Program-made: the position numbers and the translations under genes | Origin: Eledone cirrhosa | Taxonomy: Eukaryota | Assembly (NCBI GenBank): GCA_964016885.1 | Contig: OZ024740.1 | Location: 153,760,001 to 153,824,000 of the forward strand | DNA: 64,000 bases | Direction: 5' to 3' | Shown here: in pieces, positions 1 to 56,720 of the stretch | Position numbering within the stretch: position 1 is the stretch's first letter | Layout: each line of letters starts with the position of its first letter | Notes under the pieces: generated by a model | Databases searched by the model: none | Told to the model about the DNA's origin: nothing | Seen by the model: only the letters and a program-made list of their open reading frames with translations

Positions 1-73
1 CTTATGGGGTCGATAACATAAAGTTCCAGTAATGTACTGAGTAATTGCTGGCCTTGTGCCTAAAGTAGAAACA
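1..73 (+). mobile_element. SINE 3' part (cut by the window edge)
   Basis: GGGGTCGATAACATAAAG...GTGCCTAAAGTAGAAACA. Confidence 0.8.
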
Positions 74-251
74 GTTATTTCTTTCTAGCATGTGTAGAGA
101 CTTGTCGAAAGTGGGTTTTTATCGTGGGGTTAGGGGGGGGGGGGTACAGTGAGAATAATAGAGAGAAAGAAAAAGGGAGATTATGAAATTGAACGAGAGG
201 GAGAGAGGGAGAGAGGGAGTAAGAGTGATCATTACCAATGATAAAGTAATT

Positions 252-288
252 AATAATTTAATATGCCTCATCTAATTATAGTTTAAAA
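252..288 (+). promoter_or_regulatory. Conserved tRNA leader with a TATA-like element (about -38 to -20); representative copy
   Basis: AATATGCYTYRTCTAATTATWGTTWAAA precedes essentially every full-length copy at a similar distance, on either strand. Confidence 0.55.
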
Positions 289-308
289 GGTACCTTCATA
301 ATCAGTAA

Positions 309-392
309 GTCAGGATGGCCGAGCGGTCTAAGGCGCTGCGTTCAGGTCGCAGTCGGGTTTTCCCGGCGTGGGTTCGAATCCCACTTCTGACA
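309..392 (+). tRNA. trnL-CAG: tRNA-Leu(CAG), class A (variable loop TTTT)
   Basis: GTCAGGATGGCCGAGCGGTCTAAGGCGCTGCGTTCAGGTCGCAG...GGTTCGAATCCCACTTCTGACA; 84 nt; all stems pair; A and B boxes intact; T5 downstream. Confidence 0.93.
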
Positions 393-397
393 TTACA

Positions 398-402
398 TTT
401 TT
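398..402 (+). terminator. Pol III T5 terminator of a class A gene; representative copy
   Basis: GACA-TTACA-TTTTT-G. Confidence 0.75.
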
Positions 403-472
403 GTTATTTCAATACAAACTGATGGTTTAAACCACCCTTATCTTACAGATTCATTATCTACAATTTAGTAGT

Positions 473-652
473 GGTGGTTTGGCAGTATCGGTAGAGAGTC
501 GGATGCCATGCTTCCAGCATAGTTACGCCCCTTTACGGTCTGAGTTCAAATCCAGCCGGGGTTCACTTTGCCTTTCAACCTTACGGGGTCGATAAAATAA
601 AGTACCAGTAATGTACTGGGTAATTGCTGACTTTGTGCCAAAAGTAGAAACA
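473..652 (+). mobile_element. tRNA-derived SINE (octopus-type), near full length
   Basis: A box TGGCAGTATCGG; B box GAGTTCAAATCC; central GCCTTTCAACCTTACGGGGTCGATAAAATAAAGTACC; direct repeats at 453-472 and 653-672. Confidence 0.85.
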
Positions 653-1100
653 ATTATTTACAATTTGGTAGTCAAACAGTTTTAGATTGTAAACCTAAAT
701 CAGTTAGAAGCAGTTATGAATACATTCAGTTGTTAAAGATAATGTTTCATCGTTTTTAGCCAATGTACTATCCCTTAACGTTACTAGGTGCCTTGCACAA
801 AGTTAACTTTCGATATACAAAGATACGTACAGGTCACAGCTGGAGGATATTGTATTGTAACTATTCTAGACCGGAGATGGACGTTACTGGACACAAAGAA
901 ATTACAATATACGTCTTTCATGATTTCACAAATATATTTAAAATGTTTAAGTCTATTTCAAACTTAAAGTTTCATCAAGCCCAAGCTTATCCTATATTAA
1001 CTAACGTTAGGCAAATGAGATTACAACATTCCCATCTTGACGAGACTCAAATCCGTCGGGAAATTAAGCCTCAGTTACTGCCAGTATAATTTGTTTACTA

Positions 1101-1152
1101 AAGGCGCTGCGTTCAGATCGCAGTCTTCTCGGTTCGAATCCCACTTCTGACA
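1101..1152 (+). pseudogene. tRNA-Leu fragment, class E (no A box, variable arm partly deleted)
   Basis: AAGGCGCTGCGTTCAGATCGCAGTCTTCTCGGTTCGAATCCCACTTCTGACA. Confidence 0.85.
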
Positions 1153-1446
1153 ACAATATTATCACATATAAATACGATATCGAAAGTATGATGTCTTAAA
1201 CCAATCTTCAATAGCAGAATTACTATTTACAAATTCACCAGGTCGTAGTTTATCCAATATTTACTATTAAATGAAAGTACAACGTTCCCATCTTGACGGG
1301 ACACAAATCCATCAGAAGATAGATCCCTACTTTCTCTCAATATTCGATCTTTTACAAATTTTTTGATGATGGTGTCATTATTTATTTATTTGTTTATTTA
1401 TGTGTTTATTTATTTTCATTAGTTTAATTAAGGAGCGAACCTATCG

Positions 1447-1518
1447 TTGATATCACTATGATAATTCATATTGATATCACTATGAAAATTCATATTGATA
1501 TCACTATGAAAATTCATA
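1447..1518. repeat. 24-bp minisatellite TTGATATCACTATGAWAATTCATA (copy number varies among units)
   Basis: 3 copies here, about 5 at 12737, about 7 at 45282; gives the MIIHIDIT peptide repeats in the ORF track. Confidence 0.9.
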
Positions 1519-1532
1519 CTTATTTAGTAATC

Positions 1533-1762
1533 CGAAAGAGAGAGAGAGAGAGAGAGATAGAGAGAAAGAAACAGAGATTTAGAAATATAGAGAGAGATAC
1601 AGAGGGAGAGAAAGAGAGAGTGAGAGAGAGTAATAGGGAGAGAGAGAGTGGGGAATGGAGAAAGAGAAATAGAGAGAGAGAGAGAGAGAGAAAGAGGGAG
1701 ATAGATAGATAGATAGACAGAGAGAGACAGAGAGACAGAGAAAAAGAAAGAGAGAGAGGGAG

Positions 1763-1813
<51 letters not shown>

Positions 1814-2021
1814 AAGAGAGGCAGAGGGAAACTACCACCAACGAAAAATAGTTAATATGAGAGAGAGATAGAGAGAGAGAAACAGAGATTTAGAAATATA
1901 GAGAGAGATACAGAGAGAGAGAAAGAGAGAGTGAGGGAGAGTAATAGGGAGAGAGAGAGAGTGGGGAATGGAGAAAGAGAAATAGAGAGAGATAGAGAAA
2001 GAGGGAGATAGATAGATAGAT

Positions 2022-2090
<69 letters not shown>

Positions 2091-2130
2091 TAGATAGATA
2101 GAGAGAGAGAGACAAAGAGATGCAGAGGGA
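1533..2130. repeat. Compound (GA)n/(GATA)n microsatellite upstream of a class B gene; homologous purine tracts precede most copies
   Basis: Direct reading. Confidence 0.95.
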
Positions 2131-2208
2131 AACCACTACCAACGATAAATAGTTAATAAAATATGCCTTGTCTAATTATTGTTAAAATGTTCTCCGCGAA
2201 GCTGGTGA

Positions 2209-2292
2209 GTCAGGATGGCCGAGCGGTCTAAGGCGCTGCGTTCAGGTCGCAGTCGGGTCTTCCCGACGTGGGTTCGAATCCCACTTCTGACA
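2209..2292 (+). tRNA. trnL-CAG: tRNA-Leu(CAG), class B (variable loop TCTT)
   Basis: Full cloverleaf; T4 downstream. Confidence 0.93.
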
Positions 2293-2460
2293 ATACAGTT
2301 TTGTTACTTCAATATGAAAACAACTGTTTGTTGTTTTAAACTATCCTTCTGTTAGAGAATTATTATTTAATTTTATAACCCTAATGTTTTAGATTGCAGA
2401 TCAAAATCAGTTAGAACCAGTAATGAAACAAATCATTTGTTAAAAATAATGTTAAGAATG

Positions 2461-2841
2461 AGGAATATAATAGCTGGAGAAATTCAAGCAACAATATATG
2501 CTTTGAGACGGGATAAAATATCACCCGGATTATTCATAAGTATGAATTTTCAAAGTGATATAAACGATAGTTTTGCTTCTTAAATAAACCACGAATGAGA
2601 TAACAACATTCCCATCTTGACGTGTCTCAAATCCGTCGTAAAATTAATCCACAGTTACTCTCAATTACTTATCTTTTACTAAATGATATAGGCCTGCATT
2701 ATTATTATCATTATTTATTATTATCAAATTTATCGTTGATATCATTATGAAAATTTATAATTATTAATATTTCGGATGATTTTATCCCGTCTCAAAGAAT
2801 ATATCGTACCTTGAATTCCGCCATCCATTACGTTACTCCTT
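2461..2841. repeat. Inverted repeat with about 110-bp arms, present in each unit
   Basis: TTTGAGACGGGATAAAAT at 2502-2519 and ATTTTATCCCGTCTCAAA at 2779-2796. Confidence 0.85.
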
Positions 2842-3091
2842 GTGAAGCAAATAGGAGAGTTGCTTGTTATTTCTTTCTAGCTAGTAGAGAGACCTAATGC
2901 ATAGTGGGTGTCCCGTGGGGTCAGGGAGAATACGGTGAGAATAATAGAGAGAAAGAAAGAGGGAGGATATGAGATTTAGAGGGAGAGAGAGTGAGAGAGA
3001 GAGAGAGAGATGGAGAGAGAGAGATTGAGAGAGAGAGAGAGAGAGTGAGAGAGAGAGAGTGAGAGAGAGTGAGAGAGAGAGAGAGAGAGAG

Positions 3092-3162
<71 letters not shown>

Positions 3163-3245
3163 AATCTCCACCAACGATAAATCAGGTAAACAATTTAATA
3201 TGCTTCGTGTAATTATTGTCAAAATGTTACTTCTAGATCCGGTAG

Positions 3246-3329
3246 GTCAGGATGTCAGAGCTCTCTAAGGTGTTGTGTTCAGATCACAGTCGGGTCTCCC
3301 TTCCGTGGGTTAGAATCCCACTTCTGACA
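3246..3329 (+). pseudogene. tRNA-Leu(CAG) pseudogene, class C
   Basis: 84 nt collinear; A box (ATGTCAGAGCTC) and B box (GGTTAGAAT) both mutated. Confidence 0.85.
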
Positions 3330-3661
3330 TTACTTTATTGTTATTTCAATATGAAACCAAACTGTTTGTTGGTTTAAACCATCCTTCTGTTACAGATATA
3401 TTATTTACTATTTTGTAATCTTACACATTTAGATTATAAACTAAAATCAGTTTGAACCAGTTATCAAAAAGTATATGACTGTCCTAAACCTCGAGTTTCA
3501 TCAAGCCGTAGCTTATCCTATATTAACCTTTCTACTTGTTTAGGATGAGAATGATAAAGTTAAAAAGTGAGAGAGTGTGAGTGACCACGAATGATAAAGC
3601 AAGTAATAATTTAATAAGACTCGTCTAATTGTAGTTTAAAAGTTATCCTTGCAAACAGTAA

Positions 3662-3745
3662 GTCATGATGGCCGAGCGGTGTAAGGCGCTGCGTTTAGGT
3701 CGCAGTCAGGTGTTCCAGGCGTGAGTTCGAATCCCACTTCTGACA
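3662..3745 (+). pseudogene. tRNA-Leu(TAG)-like copy, class D (anticodon-shifted)
   Basis: Anticodon loop TTTAGGT; A and B boxes near intact; acceptor, T-stem and variable-arm mismatches. Confidence 0.75.
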
Positions 3746-3977
3746 ACAGTTTGATCACATTTTAATAATATATCGAAAGTATAATCAATCTTCAGTGACA
3801 GAATTACTATTTACAAATTTATCAGGTCGTAGTTTATTCAATATTTACTACCAAATCAGAGTACCACGTTCCCATGTCGAGGGGACAGACATCCATCAGA
3901 CGATAGATCCCTACTTTCTATCAATATTCTTTTTTTTTTACAAAATTCTATAGGATGGTCTCATTATTTAATCATTT

Positions 3978-4108
3978 GTTACGTCCCTTTACGGTCTGAG
4001 TTCAAATCCCGCCGAGGTTTACTTTGACTTTCATCCTTATGGGGTCGATAACATAAAGTTCCAGTAATGTACTGAGTAATTGCTGGCCTTGTGCCTAAAG
4101 TAGAAACA
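3978..4108 (+). mobile_element. 5'-deleted SINE; also at 8039-8169, 11226-11355, 18811-18941, 26172-26302, 33688-33818, 41406-41536
   Basis: B box through 3' end of the same SINE family. Confidence 0.82.
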
Positions 4109-4347
4109 GTTATTTCTTTCTAGCATGTGTAGAGACTTGTCGAAAGTGGGTTTTTATCGTGGGGTTAGGGGGGGGGGGGTACAGTGAGAATAATAGAGAG
4201 AAAGAAAAAGGGAGATTATGAAATTGAACGAGAGAGAGGGAGAGAGGGAGAGAGGGAGTAAGAGTGATCATTACCAATGATAAAGTAATTAATAATTTAA
4301 TATGCCTCATCTAATTATAGTTTAAAAGGTACCTTCATAATCAGTAA

Positions 4348-4431
4348 GTCAGGATGGCCGAGCTGTGTAAGGCGCTGCGTTCAGGTCGCAGTCGGGTTTT
4401 CCCGGCGTGGGTTCGAATCCCACTTCTGACA
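4348..4431 (+). tRNA. trnL-CAG: tRNA-Leu(CAG), class A, D-loop GG mutated (possible pseudogene)
   Basis: Full length, but GAGCTGTGTAA replaces GAGCGGTCTAA. Confidence 0.7.
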
Positions 4432-4511
4432 TTACATTTTTGTTATTTCAATACAAACTGATGGTTTAAACCACCCTTATCTTACAGATTCATTATCTAC
4501 AATTTAGTAGT

Positions 4512-4693
4512 GGTGGTTTGGCAGTATCGGTAGAGAGTCGGATGCCATGCTTTCCAGCATAGTTACGCCCCTTTACGGTCTGAGTTCAAATCCAGCCGGG
4601 GTTCACTTTGCCTTTCAACCTTACGGGGTCGATAAAATAAAGTACCAGTAATGTACTGGCTAATTGCTGACTCTGTGCCAAAGGTAGAAAACA
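4512..4693 (+). mobile_element. SINE (same insertion, amplified with the array)
   Basis: As 473-652. Confidence 0.85.
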
Positions 4694-5141
4694 ATTATTT
4701 ACAATTTGGTAGTCAAACAGTTTTAGATTGTAAACCTAAATCAGTTAGAAGCAGTTATGAATACATTCAGTTGTTAAAGATAATGTTTTATCGTTTTTAG
4801 CCAATGTACTATCCCTTAACGTTACTAGGTGCCTTGCACAAAGTTAACTTTCGATATACAAAGATACGTACAGGTCACAGCTGGAGGATATTGTATTGTA
4901 ACTATTCTAGACCGGAGATGGACGTTACTGGACACAAAGAAATTACAATATACGTCTTTCATGATTTCACAAATATATTTAAAATGTTTAAGTCTATTTC
5001 AAACTTAAAGTTTCATCAAGCCCAAGCTTATCCTATATTAACTAACGTTAGGCAAATGAGATTACAACATTCCCATCTTGACGAGACTCAAATCCGTCGG
5101 GAAATTAAGCCTCAGTTACTGCCAGTATAATTTGTTTACTA

Positions 5142-5193
5142 AAGGCGCTGCGTTCAGATCGCAGTCTTCTCGGTTCGAATCCCACTTCTGACA
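5142..5193 (+). pseudogene. tRNA-Leu fragment, class E
   Basis: Same as 1101-1152. Confidence 0.85.
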
Positions 5194-5803
5194 ACAATAT
5201 TATCACATATAAATACGATATCGAAAGTATGATGTCTTAAACCAATCTTCAATAGCAGAATTACTATTTACAAATTCACCAGGTCGTAGTTTATCCAATA
5301 TTTACTATTAAATGAAAGTACAACGTTCCCATCTTGACGGGACACAAATCCATCAGAAGATAGATCCCTACTTTCTCTCAATATTCGATCTTTTACAAAT
5401 TTTTTGATGATGGTGTCATTATTTATTTATTTGTTTATTTATGTGTTTATTTATTTTCATTAGTTTAATTAAGGAGCGAACCTATCGTTGATATCACTAT
5501 GATAATTCATATTGATATCACTATGAAAATTCATATTGATATCACTATGAAAATTCATACTTATTTAGTAATCCGAAAGAGAGAGAGAGAGAGAGAGATA
5601 GAGAGAAAGAAACAGAGATTTAGAAATATAGAGAGAGATACAGAGGGAGAGAAAGAGAGAGTGAGAGAGAGTAATAGGGAGAGAGAGAGTGGGGAATGGA
5701 GAAAGAGAAATAGAGAGAGAGAGAGAGAGAGAAAGAGGGAGATAGATAGATAGATAGACAGAGAGAGACAGAGAGACAGAGAAAAAGAAAGAGAGAGAGG
5801 GAG

Positions 5804-5858
<55 letters not shown>

Positions 5859-6108
5859 AAGAGAGGCAGAGGGAAACTACCACCAACGAAAAATAGTTAA
5901 TATGAGAGAGAGATAGAGAGAGAGAAACAGAGATTTAGAAATATAGAGAGAGATACAGAGAGAGAGAAAGAGAGAGTGAGAGAGAGTAATAGGGAGAGAG
6001 AGAGAGTGGGGAATGGAGAAAGAGAAATAGAGAGAGATAGAGAAAGAGGGAGATAGATAGATAGATAGACAGAGAGAGAGAGAGAGAGAGAGAGAGTGAG
6101 ACAGAGAG

Positions 6109-6147
<39 letters not shown>

Positions 6148-6261
6148 TAGATAGAGAGAGAGAGACAAAGAGATGCAGAGGGAAACCACCACCAACGATA
6201 AATAGTTAATAAAATATGCCTTGTCTAATTATTGTCAAAACGTTCTCTTCGAAGCTGGTGA

Positions 6262-6345
6262 GTCAGGATGGCCGAGCGGTCTAAGGCGCTGCGTTCAGGT
6301 CGCAGTCGGGTCTTCCCGGCGTGGGTTCGAATCCCACTTCTGACA
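6262..6345 (+). tRNA. trnL-CAG: tRNA-Leu(CAG), class B
   Basis: Consensus copy. Confidence 0.94.
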
Positions 6346-7143
6346 ATACAGTTTTGTTACTTCAATATGAAAACAACTGTTTGTTGTTTTAAACTATCCT
6401 TCTGTTAGAGAATTATTATTTAATTTTATAACCCTAATGTTTTAGATTGCAGATCAAAATCAGTTAGAACCAGTAATGAAACAAATCATTTGTTAAAAAT
6501 AATGTTAAGAATGAGGAATATAATAGCTGGAGAAATTCAAGCAACAATATATGCTTTGAGACGGGATAAAATATCACCCGGATTATTCATAAGTATGAAT
6601 TTTCAAAGTGATATAAACGATAGTTTTGCTTCTTAAATAAACCACGAATGAGATTACAACATTCCCATCTTGACGTGTCTCAAATCCGTCGTAAAATTAA
6701 TCCACAGTTACTCTCAATTACTTATCTTTTACTAAATGATATAGGCCTGCATTATTATTATCATTATTTATTATTATCAAATTTATCGTTGATATCATTA
6801 TGAAAATTTATAATTATTAATATTTCGGATGATTTTATCCCGTCTCAAAGAATATATCGTACCTTGAATTCCGCCATCCATTACGTTACTCCTTGTGAAG
6901 CAAATAGGAGAGTTGCTTGTTATTTCTTTCTAGCTAGTAGAGAGACCTAATGCATAGTGGGTGTCCCGTGGGGTCAGGGAGAATACGGTGAGAATAATAG
7001 AGAGAAAGAAAGAGGGAGGATATGAGATTTAGAGGGAGAGAGAGTGAGAGAGAGAGAGAGAGATGGAGAGAGAGAGATTGAGAGAGAGAGAGAGAGAGAG
7101 TGAGAGAGAGAGAGTGAGAGAGAGTGAGAGAGAGAGAGAGAGA

Positions 7144-7223
<80 letters not shown>

Positions 7224-7306
7224 AATCTCCACCAACGATAAATCAGGTAAACAATTTAATATGCTTCGTGTAATTATTGTCAAAATGTTACTTCTAGATC
7301 CGGTAG

Positions 7307-7390
7307 GTCAGGATGTCAGAGCTCTCTAAGGTGTTGTGTTCAGATCACAGTCGGGTCTCCCTTCCGTGGGTTAGAATCCCACTTCTGACA
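7307..7390 (+). pseudogene. tRNA-Leu pseudogene, class C
   Basis: As 3246-3329. Confidence 0.85.
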
Positions 7391-7722
7391 TTACTTTATC
7401 GTTATTTCAATATGAAACCAAACTGTTTGTTGGTTTAAACCATCCTTCTGTTACAGATATATTATTTACTATTTTGTAATCTTACACATTTAGATTATAA
7501 ACTAAAATCAGTTTGAACCAGTTATCAAAAAGTATATGACTGTCCTAAACCTCGAGTTTCATCAAGCCGTAGCTTATCCTATATTAACCTTTCTACTTGT
7601 TTAGGATGAGAATGATAAAGTTAAAAAGTGAGAGAGTGTGAGTGATCACGAATGATAAAACAAGTAATAATTTAATAAGACTCGTCTAATTGTAGTTTAA
7701 AAGTTATCCTTGCAAACAGTAA

Positions 7723-7806
7723 GTCATGATGGCCGAGCGGTGTAAGGCGCTGCATTTAGGTCGCAGTCAGGTGTTCCAGGCGTGAGTTCGAATCCCACTT
7801 CTGACA
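7723..7806 (+). pseudogene. tRNA-Leu(TAG)-like copy, class D
   Basis: As 3662-3745. Confidence 0.75.
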
Positions 7807-8407
7807 ACAGTTTGATCACATTTTAATAATATATCGAAAGTATAATCAATCTTCAGTGACAGAATTACTATTTACAAATTTATCAGGTCGTAGTTTATTC
7901 AATATTTACTACCAAATCAGAGTACAACGTTCCCATGTCGAGGGGACAGACATCCATCAGACGATAGATCCCTACTTTCTATCAATATTCTTTTTTTTTT
8001 ACAAAATTCTATAGGATGGTCTCATTATTTAATCATTTGTTACGTCCCTTTACGGTCTGAGTTCAAATCCCGCCGAGGTTTACTTTGACTTTCATCCTTA
8101 TGGGGTCGATAACATAAAGTTCCAGTAATGCACTGGGTAATTGCTGGCCTTGTGCCTAAAGTAGAAACAGCTATTTCTTTCTAGCATGTGTAGAGACTTG
8201 TCGAAAGTGGGTTTTTATCGTGGGGTTAGGGGGGGGGGGTACAGTGAGAATAATAGAGAGAAAGAAAAAGGGAGATTATGAAATTGAACGAGAGAGAGGG
8301 AGAGAGGGAGAGAGGGAGTAAGAGTGATCATTACCAATGATAAAGTAATTAATAATTTAATATGCCTCATCTAATTATAGTTTAAAAGGTACCTTCATAA
8401 TCAGTAA

Positions 8408-8491
8408 GTCAGGATGGCCGAGCGGTCTAAGGCGCTGCGTTCAGGTCGCAGTCGGGTTTTCCCGGCGTGGGTTCGAATCCCACTTCTGACA
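8408..8491 (+). tRNA. trnL-CAG: tRNA-Leu(CAG), class A
   Basis: Consensus copy. Confidence 0.93.
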
Positions 8492-8571
8492 TTACATTTT
8501 TGTTATTTCAATACAAACTGATGGTTTAAACCACCCTTATCTTACAGATTCATTATCTACAATTTAGTAGT

Positions 8572-8751
8572 GGTGGTTTGGCAGTATCGGTAGAGAGTCG
8601 GATGCCATGCTTCCAGCATAGTTACGCCCCTTTACGGTCTGAGTTCAAATCCAGCCGGGGTTCACTTTGCCTTTCAACCTTACGGGGTCGATAAAATAAA
8701 GTACCAGTAATGTACTGGGTAATTGCTGACTTTGTGCCAAAGGTAGAAACA
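8572..8751 (+). mobile_element. SINE (same insertion)
   Basis: As 473-652. Confidence 0.85.
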
Positions 8752-9199
8752 TTTATTTACAATTTGGTAGTCAAACAGTTTTAGATTGTAAACCTAAATC
8801 AGTTAGAAGCAGTTATGAATACATTCAGTTGTTAAAGATAATGTTTTATCGTTTTTAGTCAATGTACTATCCCTTAACGTTACTAGGTGCCTTGCACAAA
8901 GTTAACTTTCGATATACAAAGATACGTACAGGTCACAGCTGGAGGATATTGTATTGTAACTATTCTAGACCGGAGATGAACATTACTGGACACAAAGAAA
9001 TTACAATATACGTCTTTCATGATTTCACAAATATATTTAAAATGTTTAAGTCTATTTCAAACTTAAAGTTTCATCAAGCCCAAGCTTATCCTATATTAAC
9101 TAACGTTAGGCAAATGAGATTACAACATTCCCATCTTGACGAGACTCAAATCCGTCGGGAAATTAAGCCTCAGTTACTGCCAGTATAATTTGTTTACTA

Positions 9200-9251
9200 A
9201 AGGCGCTGCGTTCAGATCGCAGTCTTCTCGGTTCGAATCCCACTTCTGACA
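9200..9251 (+). pseudogene. tRNA-Leu fragment, class E
   Basis: Same as 1101-1152. Confidence 0.85.
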
Positions 9252-10737: not shown

Positions 10738-10802
<65 letters not shown>

Positions 10803-44395: not shown

Positions 44396-44433
<38 letters not shown>

Positions 44434-46867: not shown

Positions 46868-47614
46868 TCACCGTTTATGAGTATAACTTTTGAACTATAA
46901 TTAGACGAGGCATATTAAATTGTTACTTGTTTTATCATCGTTAGCGATCACTCTCACTTGCTCTATCACACAGTCTCTCGTTCTATTATTCGTATTGTCT
47001 CCCTCCTCTTCCAACGAGACACCCAATATGCGAGAGGCCTCTCAACATGCTAGAAAGAAATAACAAGTAAATCTCCTTCAATTTTCACTCTATTTTCTTC
47101 ACAAGAAGGAATATAATAAATGGAGAAATTCAAGCAACAATATATGCTTTGAGACGGGATAAAATATCACCCGGATTATTCATAAGTATGAATTTTCATG
47201 GTGATATAAACGATAGTTTTGCTTTTTTAATTAAACCACGAATGAGATCACAGCTTTCCCATATTGACGTGACTCAAATACGTCGTAAAATTAATCCACA
47301 GTTACTCACTATAATCTTTTACTAAATTATGTTATTATCAATTTGTTTTCAGTAGTTTATTTAAGAAGAAAAGCTATCGTTGATATCATTATGAAAATTT
47401 ATACTTATTCATAATTCGGATGATTTTACCCCGTCTCAAATTATATATCGTAGCTTGAATTCCGCCATCCATTACGTTACTCCTCGTGAAGAAAATAGAG
47501 AGAAGGTTGCTTCTTTCTAGCTAGTAGAGAGACGTAATGCATATTGAGTGTCCTGTGGGGTCAGGGAGAATATGGTGAGAATAATAGAGAGAAAGAAAGA
47601 GGGAGGATATGAGA

Positions 47615-47676
<62 letters not shown>

Positions 47677-47721
47677 GAGATAGATAGATAGATAGAGAGA
47701 GAGAGAGCGAGAAAGAGAGTG

Positions 47722-47771
<50 letters not shown>

Positions 47772-47851
47772 CACCACCAACGATAAATCAAGTAAACAAT
47801 TTAATATGCTTCGTGTAATTATTGTTAAAATGTTACTTCTAGATCCGGTAG

Positions 47852-47935
47852 GTCAGGATGTCAGAGCTCTCTAAGGTGTTGTGTTCAGATCACAGTCGGG
47901 TCTCCCTTCCGTGGGTTAGAATCCCACTTCAGACA
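47852..47935 (+). pseudogene. tRNA-Leu pseudogene, class C
   Basis: As 3246-3329. Confidence 0.85.
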
Positions 47936-48128
47936 TTACTTTTTTGTTATTTCAATATGAAACCAAACTGTTTGTTGGTTTAAACCATCCTTCTGTTACA
48001 GATATATTATTTACTATTTTGTAATCTTACTCTTTTAGATTATAAACTAAAATCAGTTTGAACCAGTTATCAAAAAGTATATGACTGTCCGAGACCTCGA
48101 GTTTCATCAAGCCGTAGCTTATCCTATA

Positions 48129-49111
48129 CTAGCTGGCCTGTCTGGCTGGCGTCCGGCTAGGTATACCCGCACTTTATCGTTTCAGGAATCCCCCCTCCAG
48201 TCAAGTGCAATGATACCGCACGCCCTCTCAAGTCTGCGAGGTTGGGGGGGGGGGGGGGTATTAACGTGCTCTGATTTTGGGTTTGAATACTTTTTGGATT
48301 CTCCAGTTCAGCAGCCAATACTTTAATAAAAATTGATTGTTACAACAATAAAGGCTGCCTGAGCTATGTTGATGGTAATCGGGAAGCTTAGCCTCATTGG
48401 AAACTGAAGTCGCTTAACATGTTCTGTAACTGGCGAAGGGTTTCAAGTCTGGTTCCTGGGATGGCTCGATGGCAACGTATCGCTTGTGAATCTGCATCTC
48501 CAATGAAGTAGATTTGCAAAAACTTGTAGAGATTTGCAAAACTTGAAGTAGATTTGCAAAGACTTCCAATCATGTGGTACACTTGGCCCTGTACTTTAAA
48601 TGTGGGTATGTATCCGTGCTTTCGTGAAATAACTAGATTTTTGTTTTTGTGTATGCAAAAATATCTGTATACGAATATATATATTAAAATAACAGATTAA
48701 AGTTTAAGCAAAGAATCGCTGCTTTCACCCTTAACGGAATCTTCTGAAACTAAAAAAATCAACCTGTGAACGCAGAAGTAAGTATTTCGAAAAACCTTAT
48801 CTAATGCAGACAGCCAGACATACAGAGACATATTATAAGGGCGCAACGTTATAGCTATGTATCTATCTGAAAAGACAGACTAAGAAAAAGTGAGGAATGT
48901 CGTATAACCGGAAGTGTTGACATTTGATATTTTAAAGAAGTGAATATTTAAATAATGTCTTTAATCTTTTAACAAAATTCAGTAGACAAAAATCCCCTCA
49001 CTTTTTTACTTGGAAAAAGTTACATCAATGGTGCAAATTTGGTGCTGTTTGATTCAGCCGTTTCGCGAAAAGTTTGTTACATCCATACGGCCGTCAGCTT
49101 TATAATATAGA
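48129..49111 (-). mobile_element. Non-autonomous Helitron (983 bp)
   Basis: Minus strand starts TCTATATTATAAAG and ends CTAG, with an imperfect subterminal GC hairpin; inserted between A and T of CCTATA^TTAAC without a TSD; empty site in all paralogous spacers. Confidence 0.85.
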
Positions 49112-49252
49112 TTAACTAACGTTTCTACTTGTTTAGCATGAGAATGATAAAGAAAGTTAAAAGTGAGAGAGTGTGAGTGTCCACGAATGATAAAGCAAGT
49201 AATAATTTAATATGACTCGTCTAATTGTAGATTAAAAGTTCATAATCAGTAA

Positions 49253-49336
49253 GTCAAGATGGCCGAGTGGTCTAAGGCGCTGCGTGTAGGTCGCAGTCGG
49301 GTCTTCCCGGCATGGGTTCAAATGTCACTTCTGACA
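49253..49336 (+). pseudogene. tRNA-Leu(TAG)-like divergent copy
   Basis: Anticodon loop TGTAGGT; T-stem broken. Confidence 0.78.
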
Positions 49337-49691
49337 ACAGTTTTATCACATTTTAATAAGAAATCGAAAGTATGATGTATTAAACCAATCAATCTTCAGT
49401 GACAGAATTACTATTTACAAATTTATCAGGTCGTAGTTTATTCAATATTTACTACCAAATCAGAGTACAACGTTCCCATGTTGACAGGACACAAATCCAT
49501 CAGACGATAGATCCCTACTTTCTATCAATATTCGTTTTTTTACGAAATTCTATAGGATGGTGTCATTATTTATTTATTTGTTTATTTATTGTTTATTTAT
49601 TTTCATTGGTTTATTTAAGGAGCGAAATTATCGTTGATATCACTATGATAATTGATATTGATATCACTATGAAAATTCATACTTTAATAAG

Positions 49692-49728
<37 letters not shown>

Positions 49729-50002
49729 ATAGAGAGAGACGGAGAGAGAGAAAGAGTGAGAGAGAGTAATAGAGGGAGAGAGAGGGAGAGAGAGAGTGAG
49801 AGAGAGTGAGAGAGAGTGAGTGAGAGTGAGGAATATATAGAGAGAAATAGTGAGAGAGAGAAAGAAAGAGAGAGATAGATAGATAGATAGAGAGATAGAG
49901 ATAGATAGAGAGAGAGAGAGAGAAAGAAAGAGAGGGAGAGAGAAAGAGAGGGAGAGAGAAAGAGAAAGAGAGAGAAAACACAACCAAGCCTTGTCTAATT
50001 AT

Positions 50003-51728
50003 CACCGAGGAACATGTGTTTTGTTCCCCGGTTCTAACTGTTATTTCCATTATTATAAAGAAAAACTATTATTTAATTAGAAGTTTGGGTTTACGGTCAG
50101 GAGTTTGATATTTCGAAATTTTCATATTTTTCAAGAAAAAACACATTTTTTTAAAATTTATCAGTTCATATAATTAAATCAACAGAGTATATATTTATTT
50201 TATTACACAAGCGTATCAAAAGCAAACAAGTAAAACCAAATAACACCTATAAAGCAACTTATACACGTCAGAAATGACTGGATTTGCTGGATTTGCAGTT
50301 GTAGTCCAGGTCACATTCCCGCACTAGCCCCCAGATATAGTTTCCCATAATTTTTTCATTGTAGTGGCCTTGGTACCTCCGCTCTATCTCTTTCACATCT
50401 TGGTGGAATCATTCGCCTTGTTCTTCTGAGTAGGCGCCCATATTGTCCTTGAATTTTTCCAGGTGAGCGTCCAGCATATGGAGTTTAAGCGACATCCTGC
50501 ATCTCATGGCGCCAAAAGCCTTTATCAGATCCTGCACCAGTTGCTGGTAGTTTTCAGCTCTGTAGTTGCCCAGGAAGCCCTTAACAACTGCCTTGAAACA
50601 GTTCCATGCTGTTCTCTCAATCCTATTGAGCTTATTGGAGAACTTTGTAGACTCAAACACCTTCTTTATCTGAGGTCCAACCAAAATTCCACCTTTGATT
50701 TTGGCCTCAGACAACTTGGGGAAGAACTCAAGAAGGTACTTAAAAGCGGTTGATTCTTGGTTGAGAGCCTTCACAAACTGCTTCATCAACCCAAACTTAA
50801 TGTGCAGTGGCGGCATGAGCACAATCCTGGGATCAACCAGTGGCTCCCACATGACGTTCCGGGTCCCAACTACAAATTCTGTTCGCTGCTCCCAGTTCTT
50901 TCTTTTGTAGTGGTCAGAGGTGGCTCTGCTGTCCCAAAGGCAGAGGAAGCATTGCAATTTGATAAAGCCTCCTTGGAGTCCAAGCAGGAAAGTGACCATC
51001 TTGAAGTCTCCAATGATTTCCCAATTGTACTGGTTGTATTGCAGAGCTTCCAAGAGGACTTTCACACTGTAGTAATCTTCCTTCAGGCAGACTGAATGAG
51101 CTAGGGGCAGTGTCGGGAACTTGTTTCCATTGTGGAGGAGGACAGCCTTCAAACTTGTGGTGGAGCTGTCTATAAATAGCCGCCACTCCTTGGGTACAAA
51201 CGGCAACCCAATAACGTCAAACTGTCCAGACACGTCATGGCAGAAGTAGAGGCCATCCCTAAGAGTGTAAAAGCCTGAGAAAGGTTCGTGTCGACTTCTC
51301 TGACTTGTCACCTGCACTTCCGCCTTGACCAAGTTCCACTGCTTCATCCTGGAGACGAATGCTTAAAACATAACTTACCCTTTATTCAGGGTGCGATAAT
51401 TCAGTATCAATAAATCTCTTTAATCCAATTTTTAACAATTTTATACTTTATTGCACTTTTATAATTTTCTTTAGGTATTATTCTTTATTTTATAATTTTA
51501 ATTTAACCTGAAACATATATAAAAAAAATCATTTAACATAAGCAAATTAAACTTACATACAACGTAAAATCCAGCATACAAATAATTCTAGTGAATAGCT
51601 TAGAATTTTTACAAACCCAAACTTTTAACTGTTTAATAGCACTTTTAAAAAATTTATTTGGGACCTAAGCAACACAAAAAAGTGATTACAAGCCAGGAAC
51701 AGAGAAAAAAAAATTTTGTTACACGGGG
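50003..51728 (-). mobile_element. DNA transposon remnant, probably Chapaev/Chapaev3-like
   Basis: Imperfect TIRs CACCGAGGAACA and TGTTACACGGGG; TTAT on both flanks; transposase-like ORF inside; superfamily recalled from motifs, not searched. Confidence 0.65.
50268..51347 (-). pseudogene. Transposase pseudogene (C-terminal portion)
   Basis: Motifs WRLFIDSS..SLKAVLLHNGN, CFLCLWDSR, PPLHIKFGLMKQFVKAL, MSLKLHMLDAH, SEEQGE*FHQD; the frame continues past an internal TGA to the stop at 50268. Confidence 0.8.
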
Positions 51729-52413
51729 TTATTTATAATTTTATAACCCTAATGTTTTAAATTGCGGATCAAAATCAGTTAGAACTAGTAATGAATGCAA
51801 TCATTTGTTAAAAATAATGTAAACATTTTTTGTGACTATGTGCTATCCCTCTTGTTGACTAGGTGAGATATCATATCTAGAACGTTAGAATGAAAGTATA
51901 CTAAAGAAAATTTTCGGATTTGTGTCTACCTCAACTAGTCAACATGTAGGGATAGCACATTCGCTCAAAAAATTAAACATTAATTATAGCGAATGATTGC
52001 GTTCATTACTAGTTCTAACTGATTTTGGTCTAAAAGATTAGGGTTATAAAATTGTAAATATTAATTCTGTAACAGAAGGATGGTTTAAAACAAGAAACAG
52101 TTGTTTTCATATTGAAATAACAAAACTGTAATATCAACGATAGTTTCGATAACCACTGGCAATAAATAAATATATAAATAATGACACTACCATATACAAT
52201 TTCGTAAAAAATGAATAGTGTGAGTATTAGGGATCTACCTTCTGGTGGATTTGTGTCCCGTCATGATGGGGACGTTGTACTTTCATTTGGTAGTAAATAT
52301 TGGATAAACTACGACCTGATAAATTTGCATATAATAAATCTGTCACTGAAGATTGATTCAATACAACAAACATTCTCTTTCCTTATATAAATGTGATGAA
52401 ACTATTTCTGTAA

Positions 52414-52497
52414 TGTCAGAAGTGGGAATCGAACCCACACCGGGAAGACCCGACAGTGACCTGAACGCAGCGCATTAGACCGCTCTGCCATCTTGAC
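52414..52497 (-). pseudogene. Degenerate inverted tRNA-Leu(CAG)
   Basis: 84 nt collinear; anticodon-stem and D-arm mismatches. Confidence 0.8.
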
Positions 52498-52617
52498 TTA
52501 GGTGATATAAGATTTCCGTGTTAACAAGAATTAGAAGGGGCACATTATATTGTTAACTATTTATCGTTGGTGGTGCTTTCTCTCTCTCTCTTTCTCCCCC
52601 CTCTATTTCTATCTACC

Positions 52618-52667
<50 letters not shown>

Positions 52668-52773
52668 ACATACACATGCTTTCTTTATCATTCTCATCCT
52701 AAACAACTAGAAACGTTGTTACTGCCAATATAATTTTTTACTAAATTATATACGACCGCATTATTATTATTAA

Positions 52774-52882
52774 CTCAAATCCCGCCAAGGTTAACTTTGC
52801 CTTTCATCCTTACGGGGTCGATAAAATAAAGTACCAGTAATACACTGGGATAATTGCTGGCCTTGTGCCAAAAGTAGAAACA
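52774..52882 (+). mobile_element. 5'-truncated SINE in an (ATT)n tract
   Basis: CTCAAATCCCGCC...GTAGAAACA flanked by ATT repeats. Confidence 0.82.
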
Positions 52883-53285
52883 ATTATTATTATTAACTTG
52901 TTTTCAGTGGGGTATTTAAGAAGCAAAACTATCATTGATATCACCATGAAAAATCATACTTAATAATAATCCGGGTGATTTTATTCCTTCTCAAAGAATA
53001 TATCATAGCTAGAATTCTGGCATCCGTTAAAGCCCTGCATGTTAAAAAATTAGAGAGACCTCTTTCACAGTGGTGGCCCCGTTGTATCGTGAGGAAAACA
53101 GTGAGATTAATAGAACGCGAGTGAGTGTGTGAGAGAAAGTGAAAGAGTGTGTGTGAGAGAGAAAGCGAGAGAGAGAGAGTGTGTGAGAGAAAAAGTGAGT
53201 GTGATCACCACCAATTATAAAACAAGGAACAATTTAATATGCCTCGTCTAATTATAGTTCAAAAATTTAAGTTTGTATATAGTAC

Positions 53286-53307
53286 GTCATGATGGCCGAG
53301 CGGTCTA
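53286..53307 (+). pseudogene. 5' stub of tRNA-Leu
   Basis: GTCATGATGGCCGAGCGGTCTA after the standard leader, then a deletion into the trailer. Confidence 0.7.
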
Positions 53308-53380
53308 CAGTTTTATAGTCCTACTGTTTTAGATTACAAACCAAAATCAGTTATGAACGCAATCATTTGTTAAAAATAAT

Positions 53381-53544
53381 TGTTTCTAATTTTGGCACAA
53401 CGCCAGTAATTATATCAGTGCATTACTGGTACTTTATTTTATTGACCCCGTAAGGATGAACGGCAAAGTTAACCCCGGCGGGCTTTAATCTCAGACCGTA
53501 AAGGGACGTAACTATGCTGGAAAGCATGGTGTCCGACCCTTTAC
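53381..53544 (-). mobile_element. SINE, diverged
   Basis: Reverse complement of the family body. Confidence 0.8.
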
Positions 53545-54108
53545 GTTAACTAGGTGAGGTAGAAGCAATACCTAAATTTGTCTTGAATTACATTCCACCG
53601 TTATACAAAGATACGTGGAAGATCTTGTATCCTAATTGCTGTAAACTGGGACCGTACTGGACTATATATATATAGAACAACACCTTCTTTTACCCCTTCT
53701 GTCGGTCACACTCTCTCTCAACTGGCCTCTTCCTCACACTTCCACTCACTCACTCTCTGCTTCACCCCCTCTCTCATTTCCCCCCGTTTGACCTGTGTGA
53801 AATCCTTTTCTCGCTCACATCTCACCCATGTCAGATGGTCTGTATATCTCTCGTCCATAAATTCACCAAGCTTAAGCTTAATAGATATCATGTACTTGTT
53901 TCTTTCTATCTTTCCGTTGCATTACCATCTTTCTTTGTTTACATGTCTCGCTCGCTTGTCCCAATAGCTTTATTTAGCTATTGCTCGCATCAACTAGAGG
54001 TATATGATTTTTAAAGCGATGAAATACCAATGACGGTTGGAAAATCACTGATGAAGGACTAATTTTATTCATATGTAACCCACGTGCAACCACGCAGCAC
54101 TCCATTCT

Positions 54109-54139
<31 letters not shown>

Positions 54140-54432
54140 CTATAAAGTATGTCCATAGAATCATTTGATAATACATATACACCATTTCCTCTCCCAATTA
54201 GCATAATCAACCACACAAAAACCAATTAAACCAGGCTATAAGATTAAAAGGCACCTATGAAGAAATAGTAGATAAATAAACGACACCAATCTATTCGCAA
54301 TCAACCGCTATAGAATATTTAACCAACTCTTCAATAGCACGTAGAAATCGATTAAATATAACGTCAACCATGCACAATTAGGTATAAAATTAAAGTTAGA
54401 AGAAAAAATGCATATACACATATCAGGATTAC

Positions 54433-54513
54433 GTTTCTACCCCTAGGGTTTCGTTCGCTTTCGGAAATATCCTATCAAGGATAAATTCTCGAGCTTCGAA
54501 CTCATCAGGAAAC
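54433..54513 (-). ncRNA. Type I hammerhead ribozyme motif
   Basis: Minus strand: GTTTC-CTGATGA-GTTCG-[hairpin insert]-CGAAC-GAAA-CCC-TAG-GGG-TA/GAAAC; all core nucleotides and three stems present. Confidence 0.8.
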
Positions 54514-54893
54514 AAACTCACTTAGACAAAGATTTTTCTTAAATGATCCACGCCAGAAACGAATTCAAAATGGCTAAGAACTGTGACGTGGCCGTGGTCA
54601 AGTCAAAAAGAATATGATTGGTGCCTCACGGCGAGTGGGCTATTTGCTAGAAAGCGCAGCCCTATATTGCTCAAATTGCATCTCAACCTTATGGGAGATA
54701 GATTATCAAATATAAAGATTTACATATACACAAACTAGACAAGGTCACAGATATATATGTTTTGGCAACCATTCACGCTGTGGCTCAATGATGATGATAT
54801 ATATATATATATACAAATAAAGATTCAGCGAGAATCGCATTTCGGCGGGCAAGGAAAGCGAAGTGAAACGCAAAAATCAGAAATGATATAATG

Positions 54894-54977
<84 letters not shown>

Positions 54978-54979
<2 letters not shown>

Positions 54980-55169
54980 GGAAAAGAGTCAGAACCCCAA
55001 CGGCTGAGCTCCGGCCGTTTCAACAGCAATATCTAAGCTAGTTGTCGAAACGGCCGGAGCGCAGCCGTCGGGCTCTTGACTCTTTTCCTATTACCCAATC
55101 TACTACCCTAAGTATCGAGTACTCTGGTGCGTTATGGTCCACCTGGTTCCTTACCACACTTCCTTCGTT
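54978..55169. mobile_element. Fold-back hairpin element with an about 80-bp tail, inside (TA)n
   Basis: TAGGAAAAGAGTC...GACTCTTTTCCTA hairpin of 113 nt; second copy at 60901-61091. Confidence 0.7.
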
Positions 55170-55532
55170 ATATAAATATATATATATATATATATAAATT
55201 TCATAATCTCTCTCTTTCTTTCTCTTTCTTTCTTTCTATTATTCTCACTGTCCCCGCTGACCCCAAGAGACACCCACTATGCAAGAAGCCTCGACACATG
55301 CTGGAAAGAAAAAACAAGTAAATCTCCTTCAACTTTCGCCCTATTTTCTTAAAAATATGGAATATAATGGATGGTGGAATTCTAGCTACAATATATTTTT
55401 TGAGATGTGATAAAATATCCCCTGGGTTATTAAATAAGTATGAATTATCGTAGTGATATCAACGATAGTCCCGCTCCTTAAATAAACCAATGAAAATAAA
55501 TAAAAACATAAACAAACAAATGAATAAATAAT

Positions 55533-55695
55533 TGTTTCTACTTTTGGCACAAGGCCAGCAATTATCCCAGTACATTACTGGTACTTTATTTTATCGACCC
55601 CGTAAGGATGAAAGGCAAAGTAAACCTCGGCGGGATTTGAACTCAGATCGTAAAGGGACGTAACTATGCTGCCAATCTACCGATACTGCCAATCC
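55533..55695 (-). mobile_element. SINE with a 17-bp TSD
   Basis: ACAAATGAATAAATAAT at 55516-55532 and 55696-55712. Confidence 0.88.
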
Positions 55696-56066
55696 ACAAA
55701 TGAATAAATAATGACACCATCTTATAGAATTTCGTAAAAAAAGAATATTGATAAAAAGCAGCGATCTATCTTCTGATGGATTTCTGTCCCGTCAACATGG
55801 GAACGTTGTACACTGATTTGGTAGTGAATATTGAATAAACTACGACCTGATAAATTTGTAAATTAGTAATTCTGTCACTGAAGATTGATTGGTTTAATAC
55901 ATCATACTTTCGATATCTTTTTTTAATGTGACATTATTGGTTCTATCTGATTTCGGTCAGTAATCTAAAACATTAGGATTACAAATTGTAAATCATAAAT
56001 CTGTAACAGAAGGGTGGTTTAAAACAACAAACAGTTGATTTCATATTGAAATAAAAGAAACTGTAA

Positions 56067-56150
56067 TGTTAGAAGTGGGATTCGAACCCACGCCGGGAAC
56101 ACCCAACTGCGACCTGAACACAGCGCCTTAGACCACTCGGTCATCCTGAC
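56067..56150 (-). pseudogene. Diverged inverted tRNA-Leu(CAG)
   Basis: 84 nt collinear; A box TGAC; several transitions. Confidence 0.72.
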
Positions 56151-56236
56151 ATATTAGTGGCCAGAAGAACGTTTTAAATATAATTAGAAGAGGCATATTA
56201 TTAACTATTTATCAATCATATGGTTGTGCTCTCTCT

Positions 56237-56300
<64 letters not shown>

Positions 56301-56720
56301 TATATATATATATCCATTTCTCTCTGTATATATTTCTACATCTCCTTTTCTCACTCTCTCTTTTTTTTTTTTTTAAACTCTCTTTATCTTTACGTATCTT
56401 TGTATATCGAAAGTTAACTTTGTGCAATAGGTCATTTCTAAGACAATGGAATGTAATTCAAGATAAATTTAGGTGTTGCATCTACCTCACCTAGTAACGG
56501 GAAGGGATAGTACATTGGCTGAAAACGATAATACAATATCTTTAACAACTGAATGCATTCATAACTGCTTCTAACTGATTTAGGTTTACAATCTAAAACT
56601 GTTTGACTACTAAATTATAAATAATGAATCTGTAAGATAAGGGTGGTTTAAACGATAACTTTGTATTCGTATTGAAATAACAAAAGTGTAGTGTCAGAAG
56701 CGAGCATATGTCTCTCTCTC

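What the first reader, a model, noticed from the sequence alone, without database searches (positions are those of the whole stretch)
1..56700. Single-isoacceptor tRNA-Leu mega-array with a satellite-like higher-order structure
About 68 copies of one tRNA lie in 57 kb, and the array continues off the left edge. Shared leaders and trailers imply one ancestral monomer. Monomers are fixed in the order A-E-B-C-D in an about 4 kb unit and assembled into about 7.5 kb blocks (class F copies at 15256, 22869, 30381, 37866, 45716). About two thirds of copies are defective yet amplify with the intact ones. This resembles alpha-satellite HOR evolution or the tRNA-STR arrays of Entamoeba. A structural role (TFIIIC/insulator platform, heterochromatin) beyond tRNA dosage is my inference.
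Basis: partly seen in the sequence, partly recalled or inferred. Interest (0 to 1): 0.75.

Follow-up and report, generated by a model that had tools for sequence, protein, structure and literature searches.

The report
Mostly decayed leucine tRNA gene array
This is a real run of about 65 copies of one leucine transfer-RNA gene, about 70% of them broken, in an animal genome that arrays several other tRNA types the same way; it likely grew by ordinary uneven crossing-over and likely serves as the main supply of this tRNA, with broken copies carried along as passengers.

Summary
The observation largely holds: 65 tRNA-Leu(CAG)-derived copies plus 2 fragments, 20 intact. There are eight A-E-B-C(-D) cores and F copies 7.5-7.9 kb apart. 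Corrections: the array ends 7 kb left of the window (about 63 kb in all, not 'mega'); 7 copies are on the minus strand; 12 read TAG; the four F-to-F blocks are two variants (X-Y-Y-X), and the Y pair is at least 99.9% identical, so one may be an assembly duplicate. Intact classes keep bodies 0-1% apart while flanks differ 18-35%, avoid damaging mutations (2 of 12, 7.2 expected) and show the 5'-flank hypermutation of transcribed tRNA genes. Broken classes decay neutrally with no significant B-box retention (P=0.10). The locus holds 29 of the genome's 40 best Leu-CAG matches. Thr, Asp/Glu, Asn/Phe and Arg tRNAs are arrayed or clustered too; the scan had already noted Thr, Val, Pro and Met arrays elsewhere in this genome. 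Verdict: a tandem tRNA gene array under birth-and-death turnover, like the Arabidopsis and Hydractinia arrays; the structural role is unsupported.

The parts
1..49700 (.). Dense part of the tRNA-Leu(CAG) array; begins about 7 kb left of the window (G000:C1:~153,753,000)
49700..56400 (.). Degenerate tail: two damaged minus-strand copies (52497, 56150) among non-array insertions
309..4347 (+). One 4,039-bp A-E-B-C-D unit (example; 8 A-E-B-C cores in the window, 0-3.5% apart)
309..391 (+). Class A tRNA-Leu(CAG), intact, T5 terminator (also 4348, 8408, 11597, 19169, 26529, 34045, 41764; 7 of 8 without core damage; A2 variants at 16370, 38990)
1100..1151 (+). Class E: 5'-truncated pseudogene, no A box, short variable arm, B box intact, no terminator (8 copies)
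2209..2291 (+). Class B tRNA-Leu(CAG), T4 terminator (8 of 8 without core damage; B2 variants at 17203 and 39792 damaged)
2192..2197 (+). Hypervariable 5' flank of class B (-17 to -12), the zone where transcription-associated mutagenesis peaks in active tRNA genes
   Evidence: PMC6130373 passages
3246..3328 (+). Class C pseudogene: A box and B box both broken (13 copies)
3662..3744 (+). Class D: CAG body with anticodon changed to TAG and an acceptor-stem and a T-stem mismatch; A and B boxes mostly kept (11 copies, plus related 49253)
15256..15338 (+). Class F damaged copy marking block starts (also 22869, 30381, 37866, 45716); two sub-lineages
15256..22868 (+). Block X1: F-(C fragment)A2-B2-C-D-A-E-B-C-D
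22869..30380 (.). Block Y1: F-G(-)-H(-)-C-D-A-E-B-C-D
30381..37865 (.). Block Y2, at least 99.9% identical to Y1 (22311-~29900 vs 29823-~37420); very recent duplication or assembly duplicate
37866..45715 (+). Block X2 (about 97% identical to X1 in aligned columns)
23698..24497 (-). Minus-strand cassette: damaged class G (23698-23779) and perfect class H (24414-24497); repeated at 31214-32013; H alone at 46784-46867; same cassette at the array's left end
450..700 (.). Interspersed-repeat (SINE-like) fragment in the A trailer, with a B-box-like motif; second fragment at 3950-4150
   Evidence: hits in up to 61 of 97 other loci
1447..2120 (+). 24-bp minisatellite and AG-rich microsatellite ahead of class B; their length changes set most unit-length variation

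Best explanation
This is a tandem array of one tRNA-Leu(CAG) gene, 20 intact and 45 damaged copies in the window, that likely grew by repeated unequal crossing-over and likely works as the genome's main source of this tRNA, with the broken copies likely carried as neutral passengers. Steps: (1) shown by homology: one ~1-kb monomer (leader, gene, trailer, later SINE and microsatellite insertions) was duplicated locally, some copies inverted, giving classes whose flanks are now 11-40% apart; (2) shown: classes A, B and H kept the canonical body, while C, D, E, F and G decayed; (3) inferred: crossovers misaligned by whole multi-gene segments then copied first the ~4-kb A-E-B-C-D segment and later ~7.5-kb segments, so dead copies multiplied with live neighbours, which yields a higher-order pattern without any selection for it; (4) inferred: intact copies are transcribed by Pol III from their internal A/B boxes and are under purifying selection weakened by redundancy.
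For: Bodies of A/B/H differ by 0-1 of 82 nt while their flanks differ 18-35%; C, D, F and G bodies differ 12-20% from A. New mutations in A/B copies spare the core: 2 of 12 disruptive, 7.2 expected, P=0.002; with the outlying Y copies 6 of 18, 9.8 expected, P=0.046. Defective lineages are neutral: 57 of 116, 60.1 expected. The inner 5' flank (-20..-1) of A/B/H has 16 changes against 3.2 expected (p=1e-6); promoter-dead C/G/E 5 against 3.2, not significant; PMC6130373 (passages) ties this zone to active tRNA genes. 29 of the 40 best genome matches (96% or more) lie in this locus, window -7 to +74 kb. Copies group by class in a flank-only tree, with chimeras. Other tRNAs are arrayed too: Thr, Asp/Glu, Asn/Phe and Arg; their spacers are unrelated to this one's.
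Against: Within classes A and B the overall body mutation rate is no lower than the far flanks (ratios 0.82 and 0.96; A/B/H pooled 0.69, p=0.36), so recent selection per copy is weak. The disruptive-site test rests on 12 events, and my choice of core sites is a rule of thumb. Class A itself shows only 3 inner-flank changes, all in one copy. No RNA data could be laid, so transcription is not shown. The genome search scored only 40 of 152 candidates. Unequal crossing-over cannot be told from other duplication routes or gene conversion here.
Confidence: 0.75

Rival explanations
1. Structural platform: the array is kept as a dense row of B boxes (broken tRNA copies and SINE fragments) that binds TFIIIC and acts as an insulator or chromatin boundary.
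For: B-box core intact in E (8 of 8), D (10 of 11), G (2 of 2) and F (3 of 5) window copies. E shows almost no new change (1 against 4.8 expected). A SINE-type B-box-like pattern has 23 matches in the 64-kb window (a few are variant tRNA copies) against 95 in 1 Mb of other loci. A human tRNA macrosatellite binds CTCF (PMC4041453, abstract).
Against: B-box core hits in 9 defective lineages: 4 observed, 7.8 expected, P=0.10; 11-nt box 12 against 14.7, P=0.28. Class C, the commonest broken class, lost the box in 13 of 13. One unit lost D and block variants differ in content, so the order is not held fixed.
Confidence: 0.1
2. Neutral satellite: the array is junk amplification of a tRNA-bearing monomer; the eleven or so dispersed Leu-CAG genes supply the tRNA and array copy number is unselected.
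For: 70% of copies are broken; body mutation rate within A/B equals the flank rate; intact dispersed copies exist on C1 and C7. In Arabidopsis, array size did not follow codon use (PMC2886086, passages).
Against: Three independent old lineages (A, B, H) kept the canonical body through 18-35% flank divergence, and recent changes avoid the core. Gene conversion from functional copies could mimic the first but not easily the second.
Confidence: 0.12
3. Assembly artefact: part of the higher-order structure, block Y2, is a false duplication; the array as a whole is not real.
For: Y1 and Y2 match over about 7.6 kb with one 4,347-bp stretch at 100% and only a few differences elsewhere.
Against: All other units differ by 0.5-3.5% with private changes; no N in the window or 200 kb around it. 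Contigs of one run and RAD reads of three other samples of the same species label (35, 25 and 7 reads) lie on one spacer. This shows presence, not copy number. The whole-array version is very unlikely; the confidence given is for Y2 alone.
Confidence: 0.2

Closest known systems
Arabidopsis chromosome 1 tRNA-Ser/Tyr/Tyr array (81 genes, 27 triplet units; PMC2886086, passages seen)
   Same: Similar gene number; multi-gene unit as the unit of expansion; stepwise higher-order duplication explained by unequal crossing-over; pseudogenes inside, most diverged copies at the ends.
   Different: Here all monomers descend from one gene; 70% are broken and fixed as position-specific classes; inverted cassettes and two nested unit sizes.
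Hydractinia tandem tRNA arrays (PMC11067881, passages seen)
   Same: An animal genome in which tRNAs for many amino acids lie in arrays of tens to hundreds of copies with similar spacers.
   Different: Those are described as evenly spaced, near-identical copies; this array is irregular and mostly decayed. The Asp/Glu and Asn/Phe arrays of this genome are closer to that picture.
Human 1q23.3 tRNA VNTR (PMC4041453, abstract and outline seen)
   Same: Multi-kilobase tRNA-bearing unit (7.3 kb), copy-number instability expected.
   Different: GC-rich and CTCF-bound, with 9-43 units per allele; here AT-rich, four unequal blocks, no binding data.
Alpha-satellite and 'complex' higher-order repeats (PMC5615363, passages seen)
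   Same: Monomers far apart within a unit, counterpart monomers over 95% alike between units; complex HORs with inverted monomers and foreign sequence are described as usual in some animals.
   Different: Monomers are ~0.4-1.1 kb gene cassettes, only 8 cores and 4 blocks, about 63 kb; no sign of a centromere.
Entamoeba tRNA-STR arrays (PMC2652664, start of abstract and passages seen)
   Same: tRNA genes in tandem with short repeats in the spacers.
   Different: Those are homogeneous, over 10% of the genome, show no clear pseudogenes and are proposed to cap chromosome ends; this one is interstitial, about 0.002% of the genome and mostly pseudogenes.

Membership tests
Eukaryotic tRNA-Leu(CAG) gene | Cloverleaf with long variable arm, CAG anticodon, A and B boxes, oligo-T terminator | tested here: met
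   20 of 65 window copies
Eukaryotic tRNA-Leu(CAG) gene | Transcribed by Pol III and processed to charged tRNA | not testable with these tools
   No RNA run of this organism was offered; only the indirect 5'-flank signature
Tandem tRNA gene array (Arabidopsis/Hydractinia type) | Tens of tRNA genes in tandem with homologous spacers | tested here: met
Tandem tRNA gene array (Arabidopsis/Hydractinia type) | Multi-gene segment as unit of duplication, with pseudogenes carried along | tested here: met
Tandem tRNA gene array (Arabidopsis/Hydractinia type) | Growth by unequal crossing-over | tested here: inconclusive
   Adjacent duplicates, a unit lacking D and chimeric monomers fit it; no population data
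Alpha-satellite-type HOR array | Monomers 70-90% alike, counterpart units over 95% alike | tested here: met
   Flanks of the main classes 11-40% apart; A-E-B-C cores 0-3.5% apart
Alpha-satellite-type HOR array | Long regular head-to-tail run of one HOR built from ~170-bp non-genic monomers | tested here: not met
   About 63 kb, 8 cores, blocks X-Y-Y-X, 7 minus-strand copies, gene-bearing monomers
Alpha-satellite-type HOR array | Centromeric chromatin (CENP-A) | not testable with these tools
   No ChIP data
Entamoeba-type tRNA-STR array | Short tandem repeats between tRNA genes | tested here: met
   AG microsatellites and a 24-bp minisatellite in some spacers
Entamoeba-type tRNA-STR array | Homogeneous units without pseudogenes, large genome share, proposed chromosome-end position | tested here: not met
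   45 of 65 damaged; 153.8 Mb into a 442.9-Mb sequence
TFIIIC/insulator platform | B boxes conserved in non-functional copies beyond neutral expectation | tested here: inconclusive
   4 hits against 7.8 expected, P=0.10; class C lost the box
TFIIIC/insulator platform | TFIIIC occupancy and boundary activity | not testable with these tools
   No ChIP, Hi-C or reporter data

The most novel reading that the evidence does not exclude
The fold-broken but promoter-intact classes D and F are still loaded with TFIIIC and transcribed by Pol III, so the array is a Pol III hub that turns out aberrant tRNAs (including a TAG-anticodon variant) and displays transcription-driven mutation of tRNA bodies unmasked by selection: body changes run 2.2-fold over background in D/F, 1.1-fold in promoter-dead C/G/E and 0.7-fold in intact A/B/H. 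Across the genome, such arrays would tune tRNA pools by copy number.
Probability: 0.15. Interest if true: 0.55.

Novelty: new member of a known kind. Interest (0 to 1): 0.25.

Why it matters
As an object it is ordinary for this genome: one of at least five tRNA arrays or clusters seen here. Its value is as a compact record of birth-and-death evolution. Intact, promoter-intact-but-broken and promoter-dead copies were amplified side by side in the same units, so they share age and chromatin neighbourhood. That gives a built-in control for measuring transcription-associated mutagenesis inside tRNA bodies, which selection normally hides. The genome-wide habit of arraying tRNA genes is of some interest, since a 2024 paper calls it unusual in animals (PMC11067881); my three searches naming octopus or cephalopods (listings only) turned up no description for that group.

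Tried and rejected
(1) 'Mega-array running far left': rejected; 100 kb each side shows 9 copies within 7 kb on the left and 8 hits at 66-74 kb. (2) Class D as a working new Leu-TAG isoacceptor: not favoured; all 11 window copies have an acceptor-stem mismatch and a T-stem mismatch, the related copy at -3723 has the acceptor change but not the change at the first anticodon base, and D-type bodies occur only in this array among 40 scored of 69 candidates. (3) B-box or 3'-end conservation in broken copies: not significant. mis-paired the variable arm, so its intact/defective labels were discarded and redone; its position-based B-box test is unaffected. (4) The D/F against C/G mutation contrast is weak taken apart: D alone 1.8-fold (p=0.12), C+G 1.55-fold (p=0.21); the pooled signal leans on F (two sub-lineages, possibly conversion) and on E. 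Rows dropped: the second copy of the Y duplication throughout, and a few copies with rearranged flanks (39792, 44500; 10881, 14627, 22127, 29683, -6738 or -5023 in some tests). (5) Ala-AGC query found only dispersed hits, no array, in 40 scored of 103: 1 of 4 tRNA DNA queries for other types was negative. (6) All 36 of 36 read variants occur in some assembled copy, but with 131 alignments that is easily met by chance and I do not use it. (8) Read depth over the Y blocks was not obtained. (9) The 317-aa frame at 50409-51362 had no Pfam match and stays unidentified. (10) No look-alike stretches in other genomes in the scan's notes.
Full report
What is there. ARAGORN tRNA genes in the window, 31 Leu-CAG, 12 Leu-TAG and 1 unassigned; Rfam finds 36 tRNA matches and nothing else. 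nhmmer with the copy at 309 gives 68 hits: 65 copies, two 5' fragments of class C and one weak match that I do not count. Seven copies are on the minus strand. The window is G000:C1:153,760,001-153,824,000 of a 3.0-Gb genome; C1 is 442.9 Mb. The clade is not tested here: an earlier scan note calls the genome a mollusc, and the interspersed repeat in the spacers recalls octopod SINEs from memory only.

Extent. In 100 kb on each side, 9 more copies lie within 7 kb to the left and 8 hits (2 weak) at 66-74 kb. Array-like sequence starts at about -7 kb and is continuous to about 49.7 kb, then patchy to 56.4 kb. The array is about 63 kb, not a mega-array.

Order. The class string from the left end is H(-) G(-) H(-) C D* E B C D | A E B C D | A E B C D | A E B C | A E B C D | F A2 B2 C D A E B C D | F G(-) H(-) C D A E B C D | F G(-) H(-) C D A E B C D | F A2 B2 C D A E B C D | F H(-) C D* G*(-) X(-). 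So there are 8 A-E-B-C cores, 0-3.5% apart with microsatellites removed, and four F-to-F blocks of two kinds, X-Y-Y-X. X1 and X2 differ at 200 of 7,439 aligned sites. Y1 and Y2 are nearly identical: 2 substitutions between 22,311 and 29,900, and one 4,347-bp stretch at 100%. This is a very recent duplication or an assembly duplicate; I could not decide. Without Y2 the window holds 56 copies and three blocks.

One ancestor. Leaders and trailers align across classes. A, B and H flanks differ 18-35%, against about 40% for shuffled controls; a few pairs with G, D or Y72 reach the control level on one side. A flank-only tree groups copies by class, with chimeras such as -3723 (D-type leader, A-type trailer) (class E, 39792 and 44500 left out). 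The Leu-CAG genes at C1:154.52-154.91 Mb and on C7 have the same body but unrelated flanks. One 4-kb unit hits the other 97 loci only at tRNA bodies with a little flank and at two SINE-like fragments, 450-700 and 3950-4150.

Live and dead copies. After correcting a variable-arm pairing error, 9 of 65 copies are perfect, 11 carry no core damage (2 with a variable-arm mismatch) and 45 are damaged. A, B and H have T4-T6 terminators about 10 nt downstream; C, E and G mostly have none. C has lost both boxes; E has lost its 5' 21 nt; D reads TAG and has mismatches in the acceptor and T stems. Between classes, A/B/H bodies differ by 0-1 of 82 nt and C, D, F, G by 12-20%. New mutations in A/B copies avoid the core (2 of 12, 7.2 expected, P=0.002; 6 of 18, P=0.046 with the outlying copies), whereas defective lineages do not (57 of 116, 60.1 expected). 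Against this, the total body rate in A and B equals the far-flank rate, so selection per copy is weak.

Signs of transcription. In humans, mouse, fly and Arabidopsis, the 20 nt upstream of tRNA genes are hypervariable, peaking 10-15 nt upstream, most in active genes (PMC6130373, passages). With base-context correction, that zone has 16 changes against 3.2 expected in A/B/H (p=1e-6), 7 against 2.3 in D/F (p=0.016) and 5 against 3.2 in C/G/E (p=0.38). Class B varies at -17 to -12. Bodies run 0.69, 2.19 (p=0.005) and 1.08 times background in the same three groups. The gradient fits transcription-driven mutation that selection removes in working genes and that stops when the promoter dies. It is suggestive only: adjacent changes may be single events, D alone and C+G alone are not significant, and F has two sub-lineages. 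PMC13034040 (abstract and outline) treats this process in nematode tRNAs.

Structural role. In 9 defective lineages the six invariant B-box positions took 4 hits against 7.8 expected (P=0.10), the 11-nt box 12 against 14.7, the 3' end 28 against 31.6. No significant retention; class C lost the box in all 13 window copies. A search for extra-TFIIIC sites with tandem or pseudogene terms listed 3 papers, none opened.

Genome context. 29 of the 40 best matches to the intact gene lie in this locus (40 scored of 152 candidates). An Rfam search of the genome led to a Thr-AGT array at C1:243.64-243.70 Mb (81 ARAGORN calls there, 65 intron-less AGT). DNA searches with four other tRNAs found an Asp/Glu array on C3 (147 calls in 100 kb, ~1.34-kb period), an Asn/Phe array on C4 (156 calls in 100 kb, ~1.26-kb period) and an Arg cluster on C6 (32 of 40 hits in 51 kb); Ala gave only dispersed hits. 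Earlier scan notes report Thr, Val, Pro and Met arrays in the same genome; I checked only Thr.

Reality of the sequence. Three runs of one sample hold 55-60% of the unit's words and may be the assembly's own source. On one spacer (2320-2960), 17 contigs of one of them and 35, 25 and 7 RAD reads from three other samples of the same species label were laid; most reads fit only in part, and two loose ends match, by eye, the A-E spacer and the F trailer. This shows the spacers exist in other individuals, not their number.

Mechanism and comparison. A single gene cassette was duplicated locally, diverged into live and dead classes, and was then amplified in 4-kb and 7.5-kb segments, most likely by unequal crossing-over; the higher-order pattern follows from that alone. 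The closest described case is the 81-gene Arabidopsis array, with the same model and with pseudogenes tolerated by redundancy (PMC2886086, passages). Hydractinia has tRNA arrays for all 20 amino acids (PMC11067881, passages); plants have many tandem clusters (PMC12652284, passages); clustering varies widely among animals (PMC2888827, passages). The HOR identity rule is met, but not the scale or regularity of alpha satellite (PMC5615363, passages). Entamoeba arrays show no clear pseudogenes (PMC2652664, passages). Searches (listings only) showed no paper on such arrays in cephalopods; the genome papers and their supplements were not opened and may list them.

Verdict. Real; a new member of a known kind; interest 0.25.

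Noticed in passing
G000:C1:243,640,000-243,700,100 (L070, L042-L045, L071): tRNA-Thr(AGT) array, 81 ARAGORN calls, with anticodon mutants (ACT, AAT, TGT, AAA, AGA).
   Followed up: partly
G000:C3:277,240,001-277,340,000 (L081-L090): Regular Asp(GTC)/Glu(TTC) two-gene array on opposite strands, ~1.34-kb period, 147 calls, both ends beyond the fetched 100 kb.
   Followed up: partly
G000:C4:117,363,000-117,460,000 (L091-L100): Regular Asn(GTT)/Phe(GAA) two-gene array, ~1.26-kb period, 156 calls, right end not reached.
   Followed up: partly
G000:C6:63,122,634-63,173,239: Irregular cluster of Arg(TCG)-like genes, 32 of 40 hits.
   Followed up: no
L046, L048-L051, L053-L055: Isolated tRNA-like elements with GGC, GAC or GGT anticodons, unusual for eukaryotic tRNA genes; Ala-like copies are scattered over many contigs and look like a young SINE family.
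   Followed up: no
L010, window coordinate -3723: Chimeric copy with D-type leader, A-type trailer and anticodon CGT, called Thr by ARAGORN; damaged stems.
   Followed up: partly
L011-L012, window coordinates 66,400-74,000: Outlying, mostly minus-strand cluster of older monomers of the same family (2 intact, plus 1 intact gene with unrelated flanks); the copy at 56150 is duplicated at 66486.
   Followed up: partly
G000:C1:154,522,000-154,915,000 (L022-L036): Second, loose family of Leu-CAG genes sharing a different leader, 9 hits.
   Followed up: no
window 57777-59774 and 61489-63248 (minus strand): Broken frames with a weak zf-RVT match (retroelement remnant) and PIF1 helicase matches in two frames, likely a Helitron-type transposon.
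   Followed up: no
window 50409-51362 (minus strand): 317-codon open frame in a non-array insertion in the array's tail; no Pfam match.
   Followed up: partly
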